The translations under genes and the position numbers were made by a program. A stretch of DNA of 64,000 nt from Candidatus Magasanikiibacteriota bacterium (GTDB lineage Bacteria; Patescibacteriota; Patescibacteriia; Magasanikbacterales; GWA2-37-8): the NCBI GenBank assembly GCA_963802255.1, contig CAWDHY010000001.1, positions 107,274 through 171,273 of the forward strand, written 5' to 3'. Numbering within the stretch: the first letter of the stretch is position 1; each line of letters starts with the position of its first letter. This document shows, one piece after another, positions 792 to 59,737 of the stretch. The notes beneath the pieces are model-generated. The model did not search any database. It was not told the DNA's origin and was given only the letters and a program-made list of their open reading frames with translations.

Positions 792-1877
792 ATGTCCTTA
801 TCCGTTGGCATCGTCGGTTTGCCGAATGTCGGCAAATCAACGCTTTTTAATGCTTTGACCCGCAGTAAGCTGGCCAATGCGCAAAATTACCCTTTTTGTA
901 CAATCGATCCAAATATCGGTGTTGTTGAAGTGCCCGATGAACGTCTGACCAAGCTGGCTGAAGTGTCAAAATCACAAAAAATTATTTCGACGACGATTGA
1001 GTTTGTGGATATCGCCGGTCTGGTTGCGGGCGCCTCGAAAGGTGAAGGTTTGGGGAATCAATTTTTATCGCATATAAGGGAAGTAGATGCCATTGTTCAG
1101 GTTGTGCGGGATTTTAAAGATTCAAATGTATTACACGTCAGCAATAAGGTTGATCCCAAAGAAGACGCAGAGATTATTAACCTTGAATTATCGCTGGCCG
1201 ATTTAGGCACAGTTAGCAAGCGTCTTGACTCAGTAAAGAAAAACGCCAAGGGCGCAGCCGCAAAGGATGCGCAGAAGGCAATTGAATTATTGGAGAGAGT
1301 CTACGCATATTTGCAAAATGGTGGAGCGGCCCGTGAACTTGAATATACAGAAGATGAAAAAAATATAATGCGAGATTTATGTCTTTTGACAATGAAGCCG
1401 ATGTTGTTTGTGCTGAATGTTGACGAGGCCGGATCAGCAAATGGCGTGCCGGTGAAAATTAATGAAGGCACAGTTCAAATTGAGATATGTGCAAAGTTGG
1501 AGTCTGAATTGGCAGACCTAAATGAAGCTGAAGCAAAAGAATATCTGAAAGGTATTGGCATGGCGGAGACAGGATTGGATAAACTGATCAGAGCGAGTTA
1601 TAATTTGTTGGATTTGGTAACATTTCTGACCAGTGGCGAACCGGAGACGCGCGCCTGGACGGTGAGAAATGGCGCAAAAGCGCCTGAAGCGGCGGGTGTT
1701 ATTCATACGGATTTTATAAAGGGTTTTATTAAGGCCGACGTAGTGAATTGGGAGGATTTTGTAAAATTTGGAGGTTGGAGTAAGATAAAGGAAACCGGGA
1801 AAATGAGATTGGAGGGTAAGGAATATATAGTTAATGATGGCGATGTCATATATTTTCATATCAATACCGTTAAATAA
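792..1877 (+). CDS. ychF: ribosome-binding ATPase YchF (Obg-family GTPase)
   Basis: G1 motif GIVGLPNVGKSTLFNALT, NYPFCTIDPNxG, TGS-like C-terminus. The track ORF begins at 705 inside the tRNA; the conserved N-terminus begins at ATG 792. Confidence 0.9.
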   Translation: MSLSVGIVGLPNVGKSTLFNALTRSKLANAQNYPFCTIDPNIGVVEVPDERLTKLAEVSKSQKIISTTIEFVDIAGLVAGASKGEGLGNQFLSHIREVDAIVQVVRDFKDSNVLHVSNKVDPKEDAEIINLELSLADLGTVSKRLDSVKKNAKGAAAKDAQKAIELLERVYAYLQNGGAARELEYTEDEKNIMRDLCLLTMKPMLFVLNVDEAGSANGVPVKINEGTVQIEICAKLESELADLNEAEAKEYLKGIGMAETGLDKLIRASYNLLDLVTFLTSGEPETRAWTVRNGAKAPEAAGVIHTDFIKGFIKADVVNWEDFVKFGGWSKIKETGKMRLEGKEYIVNDGDVIYFHINTVK

Positions 1878-17482: not shown

Positions 17483-17555
17483 AGCGGGGTAGAGCAATTG
17501 GCAGCTCGTCGGGCTCATAACCCGAAGGTTCCCGGTTCAAGTCCGGGCCCCGCAA
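17483..17555 (+). tRNA. initiator tRNA-fMet (anticodon CAT) with an A1xA72 mismatch
   Basis: three consecutive G:C pairs 29-31:39-41 in the anticodon stem, loop CUCAUAA, unpaired 1:72, discriminator A; no encoded CCA. Confidence 0.8.
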
Positions 17556-17915
17556 CAAAGTTGCGAAGGGGCAGTAACCACTGCTCTTTTGTATTTGTGC
17601 CGCGCAGGGACGCTTTGCGTCCCGTAGGCGGCTAACCATGTTTTGCGTGAATCGGTTCAAGTCCGGGCCCCGCAACAAAGTTGCGAAGGGGCAGTAACCA
17701 CTGCTCTTTTGTATTTGTGCCGCGCAGGGACGCTTTGCGTCCCGTAGGCGGCTAACCATGTTTTGCGTGAATCGGTTCAAGTCCGGGCCCCGCAACAAAG
17801 TTGCGAAGGGGCAGTAACCACTGCTCTTTTGTATTTGTGCCGCGCAGGGACGCTTTGCGTCCCGTAGGCGGCTAACCATGTTTTGCGTGAATCGGTTCAA
17901 GTCCGGGCCCCGCAA
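17556..17915 (+). repeat. 3 x 120-nt tandem array; each unit is a 94-nt structured spacer plus a 26-28-nt copy of the tRNA-fMet T-loop/acceptor 3' end
   Basis: period 120 (ggttcaa at 17534, 17654, 17774, 17894); units virtually identical; internal hairpins gcagtaaccactgc and gggacgc-ttt-gcgtccc; the track ORF 17469..17918 is a translation of this repeat. Confidence 0.85.
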
Positions 17916-17958
17916 CAACTAAAAACATCTCCGCATAAGCGGAGATGTTTTTAGTTGT
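17911..17958. terminator. bidirectional terminator with a 22-bp perfect inverted repeat (caacaactaaaaacatctccgc / gcggagatgtttttagttgttg)
   Basis: long perfect stem with U-tracts on both strands; closes the tRNA array and the convergent perM-like gene. Confidence 0.6.
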
Positions 17959-42436: not shown

Positions 42437-42556
42437 AGGACGAGAACGCCGGAGCGATGTTTGACGAACTTGCAGGTGAGGCAAACCGCGAGGCGGTGAC
42501 TAGCCCGAGTAGGCGGAAGCCAACGAGAGGCGAGGTCGAGTCCTCTCCCCGGCACC
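42437..42556 (+). repeat. family-B tRNA-appended structured element, copy 1 (downstream of tRNA-Leu-TAG)
   Basis: shares cores acgccggagcgatgt and accgcgaggcggtg(a/g)ctag with the element at 56351-56506 (minus strand); 3' end ggtcgagtcctctccccggcacca at 42534-42556 copies the tRNA 3' end; 5' end aggac-gagaac resembles an inverted T-arm. Confidence 0.55.
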
Positions 42557-42577
42557 AGTAGCAACTAAATATTTTAT

Positions 42578-42606: not shown

Positions 42607-42710
42607 TGTGAGTCACGGGGACTTGACCTATTCGTTAATTTGTAGTATAGTTTGAGGTTCAAGAAAGTAGAAAGTTGGCTGAAAAACGTTCTTTAACAAA
42701 GGAGAAAGCG

Positions 42711-43268
42711 ATGCAAAAAGCATTATTTTTATTCATATTCGCCATGTTTGTCGGCTGTGGGGCATCTGACCGTTTTGAAGTGATTGATGGTGGTGGTAGT
42801 GATTCTGACTCGGATAACGACACCGACACAGACACCGACACAGACACCGACACAGACACAGACACCGACACAGACACCGACACAGACACCGACACCGAGA
42901 CGGAGACTGAGGCTGATGCTGGCCCTCAGACGTGTGAAACGGCTTCTGACTGCGATGAAGACGAGGTCTGTGGTTATGAAACGCAAACTTGCTATCTGCA
43001 GCCAGAGCCCGGTGCGGACCAGTATTGGTACTGCTGGGATGATGGTCCGGACAGCGAAGGCCCTAGCTGTGACTCCTTTGATTTCGGCGGTTGCGATTAT
43101 TGGTCGCCAGAGGAGTGGCATTGGACCGATGTCCATCCCGCTTGCGGCTCTAACTATCCGCCGCCAGCTTGCCCGACGCATTATCCGACCACTCCAGCCT
43201 GTTGCCTCAAAAACAACGGTGAGGATGAGGACTGCATCGGCCAGGCCTTTTTTCCCCCTATTGTATAG
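42711..43268 (+). CDS. acidic Cys-rich lipoprotein with a (DT)12-(ET)2 repeat; GC-rich and compositionally atypical
   Basis: SD AAGGAG 6 nt upstream of ATG 42711 (the track start is 42675); lipobox FVGC|G; 18 Cys; local GC well above the window background. Confidence 0.55.
   Translation: MQKALFLFIFAMFVGCGASDRFEVIDGGGSDSDSDNDTDTDTDTDTDTDTDTDTDTDTDTDTETETEADAGPQTCETASDCDEDEVCGYETQTCYLQPEPGADQYWYCWDDGPDSEGPSCDSFDFGGCDYWSPEEWHWTDVHPACGSNYPPPACPTHYPTTPACCLKNNGEDEDCIGQAFFPPIV
42819..42902 (+). repeat. hexanucleotide simple-sequence repeat (GACACN)n encoding (DT)12
   Basis: gacaccgacaca... tract inside the lipoprotein gene. Confidence 0.9.
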
Positions 43269-43384
43269 ACCTAGGTCTGCTCTTTCCCTGCCATACGCCC
43301 GGCTATCCATGCCGGGTTTTTTTTCGCTATTTTTGCATATTTATTTGGTTATTATTTATCCACATTTTGTCCCATTTCATGCTC

Positions 43385-56281: not shown

Positions 56282-56350
56282 CATCTTTAATTATTTGGTC
56301 GCTTCGCCCCAACAAAACAAAAAAGCCCCCAAAGGGGTTCTTTTGTTTTT

Positions 56351-56506
56351 GTGGGTCGCCAGGGATTCGGCTTCAACTAAAATTTTCTTCCAAAAATTTT
56401 GTCTAGCCACCGCCTCGCGGTCGCGCTCGCTCTTTTGCATCGCGCGACATCGCTCCGGCGTCCGAATCCCTGTCGCGACCAAAACTGTTTGGTCGCTTCG
56501 CCCAAA
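56351..56506 (-). repeat. family-B tRNA-appended structured element, copy 2 (downstream of tRNA-Lys-CTT)
   Basis: minus-strand 3' end ccgaatccctggcgacccac (56351-56370) copies the tRNA-Lys 3' 20 nt exactly; 5' end cagggattcggac is an inverted copy of the Lys T-arm; family-B core motifs; the box tttggtcgcttcgccc plus a terminator module is duplicated at 56294-56345 and 56488-56537. Confidence 0.55.
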
Positions 56507-56539
56507 CAAAAAAATCCCTGACGGGACTTTTTTGTTTTG

Positions 56540-56612
56540 TGGGTCGCCAGGGATTCGGACCCTGGACCTTGTCCTTAAGAGGGACCTGCTCTACCAACTG
56601 AGCTAGCGACCC
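56540..56612 (-). tRNA. tRNA-Lys (anticodon CTT)
   Basis: cloverleaf; anticodon loop CUCUUAA; T-loop TCCGAAT; acceptor GGGTCGC/GCGACCC. Confidence 0.85.
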
Positions 56613-58033: not shown

Positions 58034-58246
58034 TTATTTTTTTGCTTTTTTTGCGGCGCGCGCGGTTTGTCGTTTTACGCTAATAACCTGTGCTCCTCGA
58101 TATGTGCCGCAAAATCCGCAGGCACGATGAGGCCTGACCGGTTTGCCGCATTTTGGGCAGAGGTTATATGTTTTTTCTGATAATGCAAAATGCGCTGCTC
58201 GGCGTCGTTTATGTGACGATGTCCGTCGATGACCTGGTAATCCCAT
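58034..58246 (-). CDS. rpmF: 50S ribosomal protein L32
   Basis: LPGHRRTSSHKRRRAAHF..CPKCG...HRACGFCGTYRG matches the L32 consensus with a CxxC...CxxC Zn ribbon. Confidence 0.75.
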   Translation of the reverse strand: MGLPGHRRTSSHKRRRAAHFALSEKTYNLCPKCGKPVRPHRACGFCGTYRGAQVISVKRQTARAAKKAKK

Positions 58247-58431
58247 ATAAATATTTCTAATTTCTCCCGGCTTAAAGCCGGGGTCCCGCCAAAGTGTCGG
58301 GATAATTTCTAATGTCTTAATCCTATATGATAGGAAAATTGGCCTCTATTGTACAATAAAACCGTATTTTTTGCAAGTTGAGTATTCTTTTGGCTTATTT
58401 TAGGTAAAAAATGTATTTTATCGCCTTACTC

Positions 58432-58460
58432 TTGACAAAAGGGTAAAAATATGCTATACT
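58432..58460 (+). promoter_or_regulatory. sigma70-like promoter (TTGACA, 17-nt spacer, TATACT) reading into the high-GC insert
   Basis: -35 at 58432-58437 and -10 at 58455-58460. Confidence 0.55.
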
Positions 58461-58492
58461 AATCCGTTATGATAATAAATGCTTTATTTCCT

Positions 58493-58551
58493 GAGAGAGG
58501 GATATAGGGCATATACGAATAGTTTTGGCCTCTCTCAAACAGAGGTTTTTT
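58493..58551 (+). promoter_or_regulatory. leader with mutually exclusive helices: GAGAGAGG/CCTCTCTC versus terminator CCTCT-ctcaaac-AGAGG followed by TTTTTT
   Basis: the sequence allows either an 8-bp antiterminator-like pairing or an intrinsic terminator at 58529-58551; about 150 nt of leader remains before the downstream ATG. Confidence 0.3.
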
Positions 58552-58702
58552 GTTCCTTACAAGAGTTTAAACGCTGAATAAAGGGTTGTAGTGTAGAGAT
58601 AGAATCTGATTGATCTGTCTAATGAATAATAATTTAACACCAACCTTTTATTGAGCGCTAAAGCTCACAAAAAACGTCCGCGTAGCGGGCAGGAGGTATG
58701 CA

Positions 58703-59125
58703 ATGAATCCGAAGATCGAAGTGGCCTGCTGCGTGTGCCAGAAAAACAAGTGCAAGGCATTCGAGGCCAGCACCTTCTCCCGCGTGAAGATCGCGGAGTC
58801 GCTCGGGCGGAAGCCCGAGGTGAAGGACCTGGTCGAGAAGTTCGCCATCTGCCCCAAGTGCCGCGAGAACGCGTTCGAGCGCTTCGAGGCGGAGGCGCAG
58901 GCCGAGAACCAGAAGTACGAGCCGCGCAACGAGCGCCGGATCGGCTGGCTCTGCCACGCGGCGAGCTGCCTCGAGGAGGAGGCGGCGTCCGTGAAGGCCA
59001 TGGCCAAACTCGGCGACCTCTTCGACTTCAAGTCGGTCGCGCCGGAGCCGGCCCCCGTGACCAAGCTGCCGGTCAAGCCGGCGGCCCCCAAGGTCCGCGG
59101 CAAGAAGGCGGTCAAGACGGGCTAA
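58703..59125 (+). CDS. foreign high-GC gene encoding a 140-aa Zn-ribbon-like protein (CCVCQKNKC ... CPKCREN)
   Basis: SD GGAGG upstream; GC3 near 90% against a genome-wide AT-rich codon bias; Cys pairs; C-terminal Pro/Ala/Lys-rich tail. Confidence 0.55.
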   Translation: MNPKIEVACCVCQKNKCKAFEASTFSRVKIAESLGRKPEVKDLVEKFAICPKCRENAFERFEAEAQAENQKYEPRNERRIGWLCHAASCLEEEAASVKAMAKLGDLFDFKSVAPEPAPVTKLPVKPAAPKVRGKKAVKTG

Positions 59126-59338
59126 CCATCGGTGGCGCCCGTCAGTGTCTCAGACAAATGAAGAAATGGAGGATCCGAATGCCCTTTCCCTAACGCTATC
59201 GCACCAAGACAGCGATACCCCCGTGTACGGGGTGAGGAGATCACATACCTCAGCCGGCAAGTTGTGAGAATCCACGCTGTGGACGCGAAGCCGAGTAACG
59301 CGTGAATCTCGGTGTTTCAACCTCAACATGTCGTACTT

Positions 59339-59372
59339 TTGCCCCCGCACAGAAATGTGCGGGGCTTTTTAT
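59339..59372 (+). terminator. hairpin gcccccgcac-agaaat-gtgcggggc followed by TTTTTATTT
   Basis: 10-bp GC-rich stem plus U-tract closing the high-GC block. Confidence 0.65.
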
Positions 59373-59379
59373 TTAGATA

Positions 59380-59408
59380 TTGACAATTTTTAAAAAAACG
59401 CGTATTAT
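59380..59408 (+). promoter_or_regulatory. sigma70-like promoter (TTGACA, 17-nt spacer, TATTAT)
   Basis: -35 at 59380-59385 and -10 at 59403-59408; downstream SD GGAGGAGG before ATG 59453. Confidence 0.5.
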
Positions 59409-59452
59409 GATGTTTCGAGAAAAAAGCAGGAAAGCAATCGGAGGAGGAATAG

Positions 59453-59737
59453 ATGTGTTCTTTAAAAAACCTGTTCACATTAGGAAAATTGGTCTTGTTG
59501 GTCCAGTCGGCCATCGCCGGCGTGATATTTTTGGCTATATCCATAACTGCGTTGGTAAATCCGGCTTTTGTTGAAACAGTGAGTTCATTTGACTGTTTCG
59601 CCCGATCCTGGATAATCGCTCAGTATTGGCTGCCAAATATGTCAACTCATGCAGTAGTTGTTTGTGCTTCGTTTTTGCTTGGAGCATTTAACACCATCAT
59701 CGTATTGGCTACATCCTGTTCCAGGATTCGCCGATAG
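59453..59737 (+). CDS. small membrane protein (94 aa, 3 TM)
   Basis: strong SD GGAGGAGG 5 nt upstream; hydrophobic helices. Confidence 0.4.
   Translation: MCSLKNLFTLGKLVLLVQSAIAGVIFLAISITALVNPAFVETVSSFDCFARSWIIAQYWLPNMSTHAVVVCASFLLGAFNTIIVLATSCSRIRR

What the first reader, a model, noticed from the sequence alone, without database searches (positions are those of the whole stretch)
58660..59375. About 0.7-kb high-GC block with foreign codon usage embedded between host promoters and terminators
Between the rpmF region and the small membrane-protein genes, GC content jumps to ~65%. The 140-aa ORF (58703-59125) uses almost exclusively G/C-ending codons (gag, aag, gcc, ctg, cgc), completely unlike the surrounding genes. 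It encodes a Zn-ribbon-like protein (CCVCQKNKC ... CPKCREN) with a Pro/Ala/Lys-rich tail, and is followed by ~250 nt of GC-rich hairpin-forming sequence and a strong terminator. It is driven by a consensus host-type promoter (58432-58460) with a long structured leader. This is a recent horizontal acquisition from a high-GC organism. Some CPR lineages live as epibionts on high-GC hosts. The alternative is a chimeric contig.
Basis: seen in the sequence. Interest (0 to 1): 0.7.

Follow-up and report, generated by a model that had tools for sequence, protein, structure and literature searches.

The report
Persistently GC-rich, swappable small-gene locus
A small zinc-ribbon protein gene written almost entirely in G/C-ending codons sits in an AT-rich CPR (Magasanikiibacteriota-like) genome; it is not a recent import or an assembly error, because the same locus, framed by two conserved RNA structures, is found in at least seven related genomes, where the coding part stays GC-rich and has been swapped between lineages.

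Summary
Window 58650-59370 is the most GC-rich stretch of the 64 kb (0.70 against a mean of 0.415). The 140-aa ORF 58703-59125 has GC1/2/3 of 0.60/0.43/0.96, against a pooled GC3 of 0.385.

"Recent HGT from a high-GC organism" is not supported, and a chimera is excluded. Two independent run assemblies carry the ORF next to nusB and rnc. At least seven related Patescibacteria/Magasanikiibacteriota loci share the layout: rpmF(-), an invariant promoter, a structured leader, a GC3 0.85-0.94 zinc-ribbon ORF, a GC-rich 3' UTR, then small membrane-protein genes. No homologue turned up in any high-GC organism, phage or plasmid.

The ORF is an orphan 4-Cys family and diverges far faster than its neighbours (19-55% aa against 70-100%). 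Between two loci whose flanks are 90-100% identical, the ORF is only about 30% identical, so it has been exchanged as an allelic cassette.

Two new covariation-supported RNA elements frame it: a 104-nt leader hairpin and a 163-nt 3' multi-stem element.

My best reading is a clade-specific, vertically held transcription unit whose GC-richness is actively maintained at nucleotide level. Why it is maintained remains unresolved.

The parts
58432..58460 (+). Sigma-70-type promoter: -35 TTGACA at 58432-58437, 17-nt spacer with an extended -10 TG, -10 TATACT at 58455-58460
   Evidence: One search gives 11 of 12 matches. CTTGACAAA and TGCTATACT are invariant or nearly invariant in all related loci.
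58492..58551 (+). Attenuator-like module. The hairpin UGAGAGAGG(58492-58500)/CCUCUCUCA(58529-58537) has a 3' strand that overlaps a weak intrinsic terminator (58527-58547 plus a U-run).
   Evidence: One search finds the terminator-like site. The same mutually exclusive arrangement is conserved in L001, L003, L004, L006, L007 and L009, and the whole module is missing in L005. The loop sequence is not conserved, and Rfam gives no match.
58563..58666 (+). Conserved 104-nt AT-rich leader hairpin (38 bp) with an invariant 31-nt apex at 58591-58621 (GUGUAGAGAUAGNAUCUGAUUGAUCUGUCUA)
   Evidence: RNAalifold on 8 sequences predicts 38 pairs, 7 with compensatory changes. 96.3% of cells are paired, against 31-45% when partners are slid, and 0 of 500 shuffles reach the observed covariation. 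The leader MFE has z = -6.1. It is more conserved than the rpmF coding sequence.
58678..58696 (+). Small GC hairpin (CCGC-GUA-GCGG, 58678-58688) followed by the Shine-Dalgarno AGGAGG at 58691-58696, 6 nt before the ATG
   Evidence: Read directly from the sequence. An SD at the correct spacing and a GC hairpin upstream of it are present in all 7 homologous loci.
58703..59125 (+). 140-aa ORF. It has a 4-Cys zinc-ribbon-like N-terminal domain (CxxC, about 37 aa containing LGR...DL, then CxxC), a helical middle, a GDLF and APVxxLPV motif, and a Lys/Ala/Pro tail. GC3 is 0.957. The segment from about 58672 to about 59060 corresponds to the exchangeable cassette.
   Evidence: - Composition and codon usage.
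- Family alignment and invariant residues.
- AlphaFold2 model: pLDDT 60.6 overall, about 75 for residues 1-70.
- Cassette breakpoints were inferred from L009 against L010.
- L003 against L010 differ by 8 synonymous and 16 non-synonymous changes.
59163..59325 (+). Conserved 163-nt multi-stem RNA element in the 3' UTR (core 59178-59312). It begins with GGAGG-N6-AUGCCCUUUCCCUAA (59168-59193).
   Evidence: - Identity is 97% to L001, 84% to L004 and 77% to L009.
- RNAalifold predicts 37 pairs, 8 of them compensatory in 4 sequences.
- On 5 sequences, 92.6% of cells are paired against 30-49% when slid, and 0 of 500 shuffles reach the covariation score.
- Covariance model R1 hits only these five loci, at 170-186 bits, and nothing else in the window, L005 or L006.
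- No Rfam family matches.
59343..59374 (+). Intrinsic terminator CCCCGCACAGAAAUGUGCGGGG plus a U-run, marking the end of the GC-rich transcript. The next promoter is at 59380-59408.
   Evidence: The same terminator closes the much longer 3' UTRs of L009 and L010. Relative to those loci, the window therefore lacks about 700 nt between the 3' element and the terminator.

Best explanation
**What is shown**
- This is a clade-specific transcription unit of a small group of Patescibacteria (Magasanikiibacteriota and relatives). It sits at a fixed place between rpmF and two small membrane-protein genes.
- A strong, invariant promoter drives an RNA of about 0.9 kb (up to about 1.7 kb in relatives).
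- The RNA contains, in order: (i) an optional hairpin/terminator attenuator; (ii) a 38-bp conserved hairpin with an invariant apex; (iii) a Shine-Dalgarno and a 135-170-aa ORF for an orphan 4-Cys zinc-ribbon protein with a basic tail; (iv) a GC-rich 3' UTR that in most members starts with a conserved 163-nt multi-stem element; (v) an intrinsic terminator.
- The ORF evolves very fast and has been replaced by divergent alleles between nearly identical flanks. It behaves as an exchangeable cassette.
- Every allele keeps GC3 at 0.85-0.96 in genomes of 41-49% GC.

**What is inferred**
- Alleles that are saturated at synonymous sites all stay GC-rich, so the GC-richness is actively maintained rather than being a fading foreign signature.
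- G- and C-ending codons are used about equally within each codon box, and GC1 and GC2 are raised too. The force therefore acts on base composition, not on particular tRNAs.
- I think the most likely cause is selection on the transcript: a very stable, compact mRNA that resists nucleases specific for AU-rich RNA, bracketed by structured 5' and 3' elements.
- I infer that the protein binds nucleic acid (zinc ribbon plus Lys-rich tail). It may recognise the invariant leader apex or the 3' element to control its own expression.
- The fast, allele-swapping evolution suggests diversifying selection, meaning some form of conflict or specificity function.
For: **Locus conservation**
- Leader pattern hits in 3 GTDB species genomes and 3 metagenome contigs, plus Logan and ENA contigs found through protein homologues.
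- All show rpmF(-), leader, high-GC3 ORF, GC-rich UTR, then membrane genes.

**Not a chimera**
-.

**The ORF is coding**
- GC123 periodicity.
- A conserved SD.
- Invariant Cys4, G35, R36, D42 and L43.

**Fast evolution and exchange**
- RNase III is 79-87% identical, NusB 80-88%, FemAB 70-76% and rpmF 79-100%, against 19-55% for the ORF.
- L009 against L010: flanks 90-100% identical, ORF about 45% nt and 30% aa.
- ORF groupings disagree with rpmF and leader groupings.
- dN/dS is roughly 0.5-0.7 between close relatives.

**RNA elements**
- leader; 3' element.

**A composition-level force**
- Both C- and G-ending codons are used in every four-fold box, while A/T-ending codons are nearly absent.
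- A weak extra-structure signal: the native ORFs fold better than synonymous-codon permutations in 6 of 7 homologues (z from -0.5 to -2.8, and one at +0.4).

**No external donor**
-.
Against: - The reason for the GC-richness is not demonstrated.
- ORF folding is only marginally better than composition-matched controls (z = -1.6 against dinucleotide shuffles; a mean of about -1.4 against codon permutations).
- A GC3 of 0.96 is far above what structured RNAs need. The rRNA here is about 0.55 and the 3' UTR 0.54. GC1/2/3 look exactly like a gene from a 65-70% GC genome, so an unsampled high-GC reservoir cannot be excluded.
- No expression or proteomic data were available.
- The protein's function is inferred from motifs alone. 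The AlphaFold2 model is weak (pLDDT 60.6) and matches no known fold.
- Only about 7-8 distinct sequences exist, so covariation and recombination inferences rest on few events.
Confidence: 0.5

Rival explanations
1. Repeated import into a conserved landing pad. The alleles evolve in an unsampled high-GC reservoir, such as a host organism or its mobile elements. They are recombined again and again into the slot between the conserved leader and the 3' tail or element, so each allele looks freshly foreign.
For: - GC1/2/3 of every allele (0.60-0.68 / 0.40-0.52 / 0.85-0.96) match genes of 65-70% GC genomes.
- Cassette replacement between identical flanks is shown.
- The amino-acid composition (Ala/Pro/Arg/Gly, PAKK-like tail) is typical of high-GC bacteria (the comparison is from my own knowledge).
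Against: - No relative exists outside these CPR loci in 1.84 billion representatives read by HMMER, 5.8 billion clusters searched with a profile, 185,579 species genomes, INPHARED phages, PLSDB plasmids or IMG/VR.
- Close relatives (L003, L007, L010) differ in the ORF about as much as in rpmF. That fits in-situ descent.
- No integrase, direct repeats or inverted repeats lie at the boundaries.
Confidence: 0.15
2. GC-biased gene conversion at a recombination hotspot. Frequent homologous exchange, anchored on the conserved flanks, drives AT-to-GC fixation in the ORF regardless of function.
For: - Recombination at this locus is demonstrated.
- From my own knowledge: GC enrichment of recombining cassette loci in AT-rich genomes has a precedent in the Borrelia vls locus, and bacterial gBGC was proposed by Lassalle et al. 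2015.
Against: - A second recombinationally replaced block, in the 3' UTR (L009 1296-1594), has only about 0.44 GC.
- Non-coding parts of the same tract are 0.50-0.60 GC, not about 0.9 like the third codon positions.
- A GC3 of 0.96 in a 41% GC genome would be far beyond reported bacterial gBGC effects (my own knowledge).
Confidence: 0.12
3. Codon-biased translational control. The gene is deliberately written in the codons that are rare for this genome (NNG/NNC). Its translation then depends on C34/G34 tRNA isoacceptors and is decoupled from bulk translation, for example under starvation, tRNA-modification loss or anticodon-nuclease attack.
For: - AAG 17/AAA 2, GAG 15/GAA 1 and CAG 3/CAA 0, against genome fractions of 0.22, 0.22 and 0.45.
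- tRNA-Lys(CUU) and tRNA-Arg(CCG) genes lie within 2.5 kb.
- The bias is conserved in all alleles.
Against: - Within four-fold boxes, C- and G-ending codons are used about equally (GCC 8/GCG 11, GTC 5/GTG 6, CCC 4/CCG 6). Adaptation to particular tRNAs would not produce that.
- GC1 and GC2 are also raised, so the pressure is not confined to synonymous choice.
Confidence: 0.12
4. One reading: a single recent horizontal acquisition from a high-GC organism (or, as the alternative, a chimeric contig).
For: The compositional contrast is extreme and the boundaries are sharp.
Against: - The locus is present in the same synteny in at least 7 related genomes, with deeply diverged ORFs.
- No donor homologues were found.
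- Independent assemblies span the left junction. Relatives show both junctions, and L009 and L010 carry the window's terminator.
Confidence: 0.03
5. The ORF is spurious and the whole GC-rich block is a large structured non-coding RNA.
For: - GC-rich islands in AT-rich genomes are often ncRNAs (my own knowledge).
- Long ORFs are open in four frames.
- Relatives carry 300-950 nt of clearly non-coding GC-rich sequence downstream.
Against: - GC3 0.96 against GC2 0.43 is a strict three-base periodicity in one frame, repeated in every homologue.
- The SD and start are conserved.
- The protein-level motifs and four Cys are conserved even though nucleotide identity is at the level expected from composition alone.
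Confidence: 0.03

Closest known systems
Compositionally atypical genomic islets acquired by HGT (foreign GC3 or codon usage)
   Same: The GC and codon-usage contrast with the host genome is extreme. The boundaries are sharp and the ORF is small and orphan.
   Different: It is present in the same synteny across a clade. The signature has not ameliorated despite saturated divergence. There is no donor, integrase or repeats. The flanks are conserved functional RNA structures.
Allelic specificity cassettes flanked by conserved sequence, such as the staphylococcal agr hypervariable region or the streptococcal comC/blp pherotype loci (my own knowledge)
   Same: A short, highly divergent segment lies between nearly identical flanks. 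Allele types do not follow the species or flank phylogeny.
   Different: There is no signalling-peptide or receptor architecture. The product is a cytoplasmic-looking zinc-ribbon protein. The alleles share an anomalous base composition.
Borrelia vls antigenic-variation locus, a GC-rich cassette region in an AT-rich genome (my own knowledge)
   Same: A GC-rich, recombining coding segment that persists in an AT-rich genome.
   Different: There is no array of silent cassettes and no surface lipoprotein. Only a single copy was seen in the 64-kb window. The scale is different and the flanks are RNA structures.
FmdB/CxxC_CxxC_SSSS family zinc-ribbon proteins (TIGR02605) and other small bacterial Zn-ribbon regulators
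   Same: A small protein with two CxxC pairs and a low-complexity C-terminal tail.
   Different: Only 1 of 7 members gives a sub-threshold hit (E = 0.0026). The spacing between the CxxC pairs is about 37 aa and contains a helix-LGR-helix insert. It is not a member.
Autoregulatory or attenuator mRNA leaders (ribosomal-protein leaders, terminator/antiterminator attenuators, RNase III-processed long hairpins)
   Same: A mutually exclusive hairpin and terminator, then a long conserved helix with an invariant apex upstream of the SD.
   Different: No Rfam family matches. The attenuator loop is not conserved, so a ligand aptamer is unlikely. The binding partner is unknown.

Membership tests
Recently acquired horizontal-transfer islet | Base composition and codon usage atypical for the host | tested here: met
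   GC3 is 0.957 against 0.385 for pooled genes. The 300-nt GC reaches 0.70 against a mean of 0.415.
Recently acquired horizontal-transfer islet | Absent from close relatives (patchy distribution, empty site) | tested here: not met
   Every related locus recovered carries it at the same position: L001, L003, L004, L005, L006, L007, L009, L010.
Recently acquired horizontal-transfer islet | Homologues in a plausible donor lineage | tested here: not met
   Only CPR loci were found in 1.84 billion and 5.8 billion protein searches, 185,579 species genomes, phages, plasmids and viral contigs.
Recently acquired horizontal-transfer islet | Mobility signatures at the boundaries (direct repeats, inverted repeats, integrase or transposase) | tested here: not met
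   No flanking direct or inverted repeats. The neighbours are rpmF, nusB, rnc, membrane-protein genes and FemAB.
Assembly chimera | Junctions not reproduced in independent data | tested here: not met
   Two Logan assemblies from different runs carry the identical ORF with nusB and rnc. The right-hand architecture and the same terminator occur in L009 and L010. The original reads were not available.
FmdB family zinc ribbon (TIGR02605) | Score above the NCBIfam cut-off | tested here: not met
   One of 7 members hits at E = 0.0026, and the window protein gives no hit.
Any Pfam, NCBIfam, PHROG or PADLOC family, or any solved structure | Significant profile or fold match | tested here: not met
   - Profile searches. 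The best E-values are 0.005-0.2 and differ between members.
- Foldseek against PDB and BFVD: E > 1.
Any Rfam 15 RNA family (riboswitches, leaders, large ncRNAs such as OLE, GOLLD, ROOL, HEARO, ribozymes) | Covariance-model score at or above the gathering threshold | tested here: not met
   Nothing in 58240-59460 passes. The best hit scores 23 bits against a threshold of 50 and covers only the terminator. Nothing was found in the related loci either.
Terminator/antiterminator attenuator | Mutually exclusive helices, one of which is a hairpin followed by a U-tract | tested here: met
   58492-58500 pairs with 58529-58537, and that strand overlaps the terminator-like hairpin 58527-58547 plus U6. 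The arrangement is conserved in six relatives.
Riboswitch | Conserved ligand-binding aptamer core | tested here: not met
   The roughly 30 nt enclosed by the attenuator hairpin are not conserved between loci, and the module is absent in L005. No Rfam hit.
Integron gene cassette | An attC recombination site after the ORF, and an IntI integrase or cassette array nearby | tested here: not met
   There is no array and only a single ORF. No integrase lies within the 8-11 kb of the related loci. The 3' element is a multi-stem RNA motif, not an imperfect attC palindrome.
Diversity-generating retroelement target | A template-repeat copy, adenine-specific differences and a nearby reverse transcriptase | tested here: not met
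   The block has no second copy in the window. Differences between alleles cover the whole N-terminal 125 codons and involve all bases.
Allelic cassette locus (hypervariable segment between conserved flanks) | Flanks nearly identical while the central segment is highly divergent, with allele types incongruent with the flank phylogeny | tested here: met
   - L009 against L010: flanks 90-100% identical, ORF about 30% aa.
- The L009 ORF groups with L004 (44%), while its rpmF and leader group with L003, L007 and L010 (91-98%).

The most novel reading that the evidence does not exclude
The gene is kept in the codon dialect of a high-GC organism because it is decoded there. On this reading the highly structured, nuclease-resistant mRNA (or the DNA cassette) of this presumably epibiotic CPR bacterium is delivered to a high-GC partner cell and translated by it. 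The fast, allele-swapping evolution of the protein would then reflect an arms race with that partner. A less radical version is that the locus is a selectively maintained 'anti-genomic' recoding used as a regulatory or RNA-stability device. Either would be a previously undescribed reason for a persistent compositional island.
Probability: 0.04. Interest if true: 0.95.

Novelty: new variant of a known kind. Interest (0 to 1): 0.62.

Why it matters
Atypical GC and codon usage is the standard proxy for recent horizontal transfer. This locus is a clean counter-example. Its foreign-looking signature, at the extreme end of what is seen (GC3 0.96 in a 41% GC genome), persists across a clade and through allele replacement. 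It must therefore be maintained by selection or biased conversion.

The work also defines three things:
- an orphan zinc-ribbon protein family;
- two new covariation-supported RNA motifs in Patescibacteria, organisms with almost no characterised regulation;
- a hypervariable, exchangeable cassette, which points to a conflict or specificity function in bacteria thought to live attached to other cells.

If the cause of the GC maintenance were found, it would show what can hold base composition far from the genomic equilibrium.

Tried and rejected
- **Known RNA families.** Rfam was run at gathering and permissive thresholds on the block and on all related loci. Only terminator-shaped sub-threshold hits came up.
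- **Donor search.** I used blastn and tblastn against phages and plasmids, DNA patterns and protein patterns in IMG/VR, and protein patterns in GTDB species genomes. All were negative. A profile scan of viral contigs failed because no column block was conserved enough.
- **Transposon, integron or DGR readings.** There are no flanking repeats and no second copy.
- **The ORF as mainly an RNA-structure scaffold.** Dinucleotide-shuffle and synonymous-permutation tests give only a weak signal.
- **The 3' element in L005 and L006.** The covariance model finds none.
- **The mini-ORF MPFP\*.** The SD plus 'MPFP*' mini-ORF at 59168-59193 looked like a leader peptide. In the consensus structure, however, its SD and AUG are base-paired within the covarying element, so I treat it as structural.
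- **Literature.** Searches on CPR with GC-rich ncRNA or codon usage returned nothing.
Full report
**1.

The window averages 41.5% GC. In 300-nt windows the sd is 0.053, and the maximum of the whole 64 kb, 0.703, falls at 58801-59100, above the 23S rRNA. The rise starts at about 58650 and ends at the terminator at about 59365.

The 140-aa ORF 58703-59125 has GC1/GC2/GC3 of 0.596/0.433/0.957. Seventeen pooled genes of the window (8610 codons) have GC3 0.385. Lys is AAG 17 / AAA 2 and Glu is GAG 15 / GAA 1, and a single codon ends in T. That periodicity identifies a genuine coding frame. The other long ORFs over the block are the usual by-product of high GC3. There are no tandem repeats or low-complexity runs.

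**2. It is neither a chimera nor a recent import**

The identical protein is encoded next to nusB and rnc on short contigs assembled independently from two sequencing runs, ERR15459710 and ERR12035938.

HMMER against 1.84 billion representatives found one true relative, P0002 at 36-40% identity. Profile searches of 5.8 billion clusters added P0004 to P0007. Their contigs (L001-L003, and L010 through P0008) carry the locus, as do the contigs found with a 23-25-nt pattern from the leader. Those are three GTDB species genomes annotated as Candidatus Magasanikiibacteriota or Patescibacteria (L004-L006) and the metagenome contigs L007-L009.

All of them show the same layout:
- rpmF on the minus strand;
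- an invariant TTGACA/TGnTATACT promoter;
- a structured leader;
- an ORF of 135-170 aa with GC3 0.85-0.94;
- a GC-rich non-coding stretch of 300-950 nt;
- a terminator, then the two small membrane-protein genes and FemAB.

Nothing related exists in phage, plasmid or viral collections, nor in any high-GC genome. No repeats or mobility genes bound the block.

**3. The protein**

Seven distinct members align with invariant C9, C12, C50 and C53 (window numbering). G35-R36 (the LGR motif) and D42-L43 are invariant in the six-member alignment; R36 and L43 also hold when the seventh member, from L009, is added. They also share a GDLF-like motif, an APVxxLPV motif and a Lys/Ala/Pro-rich tail that usually ends K-x-G.

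No Pfam, NCBIfam, PHROG, PADLOC or PDB sequence match is consistent across members. The AlphaFold2 model is moderate for residues 1-70 (pLDDT about 75: two beta-hairpin-like knuckles plus helices) and poor beyond. It has no significant structural neighbour.

I read it as an orphan zinc-ribbon protein with a basic tail, probably binding nucleic acid. That is inference.

**4. Fast evolution and cassette exchange**

| Protein | Identity, window vs L004/L005/L006 |
|---|---|
| RNase III | 79-87% |
| NusB | 80-88% |
| FemAB (L004, L006 only) | 70-76% |
| rpmF (L32) | 79-97% |
| The ORF | 25-35% |

Across all pairs of loci, ORF identity ranges from 19% to 55%.

Between the close relatives L003 and L010 the ORF differs by 8 synonymous and 16 non-synonymous changes, a dN/dS of roughly 0.7.

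The decisive comparison is L009 against L010. Their rpmF, promoter, leader and most of the about 900-nt 3' UTR are 90-100% identical. From the small hairpin before the SD to the C-terminal tail, however, the ORFs are about 45% identical in nucleotides and 30% in protein, and they belong to different allele types.

The L009 ORF groups with L004 (44%), although its flanks group with L003, L007 and L010. The ORFs of L001 and L003 group together (55%), although the L001 flanks are nearer to L004 and the window.

The coding segment is therefore exchanged between lineages across conserved flanks.

**5. Two conserved RNA structures frame the ORF**

*(a) The leader hairpin, 58563-58666.*
- It is a 38-bp hairpin whose 31-nt apex is invariant in eight sequences.
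- Seven pairs show compensatory changes.
- 96% of cells pair, against 31-45% when partners are slid, and no shuffle reaches the observed covariation.
- The leader's MFE z-score is -6.1.
- Upstream, a hairpin (58492-58537) overlaps a weak terminator (58527-58551) in a mutually exclusive arrangement. This is conserved in six loci and absent in L005, and its loop is not conserved.

*(b) The 3' element, 59163-59325.*
- It is 97%, 84% and 77% identical in L001, L004 and L009.
- It folds into a multi-stem structure with 6-8 compensatory pairs in only 4-5 sequences.
- A covariance model finds it only in these loci.

Neither element matches Rfam. Relative to L001, L009 and L010, the window lacks about 700 nt between this element and the shared terminator.

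**6. Why is it GC-rich?**

The alleles are saturated at synonymous sites yet all keep GC3 at or above 0.85 in genomes of 41-49% GC. The signature is therefore maintained rather than decaying.

- *Against adaptation to specific tRNAs.* C- and G-ending codons are used about equally within each box, and GC1 and GC2 are also raised. The force acts on composition.
- *Against simple gBGC.* A second exchanged block in the 3' UTR is not GC-rich, and the non-coding parts sit at 0.50-0.60 rather than 0.9.
- *Weak support for RNA-level selection.* Native ORFs fold better than synonymous-codon permutations in 6 of 7 homologues, with z down to -2.8. Against dinucleotide shuffles the window ORF gives only z = -1.6.

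I therefore favour selection on the transcript, for stability or compactness between two structured ends. My confidence in that step is only modest. I keep three rivals open: repeated import from an unsampled high-GC reservoir, gBGC, and codon-biased translation.

**7. Verdict**

Its explanation (recent HGT from a high-GC donor, or a chimera) is not supported.

What is there is a clade-specific locus that combines:
- an orphan, fast-evolving, laterally exchangeable zinc-ribbon gene;
- an actively maintained codon usage opposite to that of the genome;
- two new structured RNA motifs.

The reason the composition is maintained, and the protein's function, remain open and can be tested experimentally.

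Noticed in passing
window 17533-17918: A perfect tandem array of 3.2 copies of a 120-nt unit. It starts inside the 3' end of tRNA-Met(cat) (17483-17556), so each unit ends with the tRNA's T-arm and acceptor 3' half (CGGTTCAAGTCCGGGCCCCGCAAC). ARAGORN and Rfam do not call the extra units. It may be repeated integration-site duplication or an unusual tRNA-derived array.
   Followed up: partly
window ~42440-42560: A tRNA-like 3' end (GAGGTCGAGTCCTC T-arm, then CCCCGGCACCA) with a long internal insert. It lies just after tRNA-Leu(tag) and a terminator. Neither ARAGORN nor Rfam recognises it.
   Followed up: no
window 42710-43270: An ORF with a lipoprotein-like N-terminus and a long (Asp-Thr)n repeat encoded by (GACACC/GACACA)n. 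This explains the moderate GC rise upstream of the 23S rRNA. It is not related to the finding.
   Followed up: partly
window 56290-56612: A roughly 190-nt block of 0.53-0.57 GC between tRNA-Arg(tcg) and tRNA-Lys(ctt). It is bracketed by a duplicated fragment of the tRNA-Lys end and its upstream sequence (TGGTCGCTTCGCCC...GTGGGTCGCCAGGGATTCGG occurs twice). This looks like a remnant of integration at the tRNA.
   Followed up: no
L001 1340-1905; L009 1284-2029; L010 1900-2560: The long 3' UTRs of relatives contain conserved Shine-Dalgarno sites, each followed by a mini-ORF of 6 codons. The length is conserved but the peptide varies: MDPPER or MDPPAM, and MKRLKR, MFRRKI or MSKKYF. These are rich in motifs that my own knowledge associates with ribosome stalling (DPP, and +x+). 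The window lacks this segment.
   Followed up: partly
window 59168-59193: GGAGG-N6-AUG CCC UUU CCC UAA (MPFP*) is conserved as MPFP, MPFL or MMPFY in L001, L004, L009 and L010. In the covarying consensus structure its SD and AUG are base-paired. I do not know whether it is ever translated. The BamHI site at 59171-59176 is incidental.
   Followed up: partly
window 58542-58553 with 58667-58678: The U-tract of the attenuator terminator is complementary to the A-rich run just after the long leader hairpin (12 nt, 92%). This could extend the hairpin base and link attenuation to leader folding.
   Followed up: no
L007 ~1195-1290 (reverse-complement orientation): The end of this contig departs abruptly from its near-identical relatives L003 and L010 in the middle of the ORF. 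This is probably a contig-end misassembly, or otherwise a structural variant.
   Followed up: no
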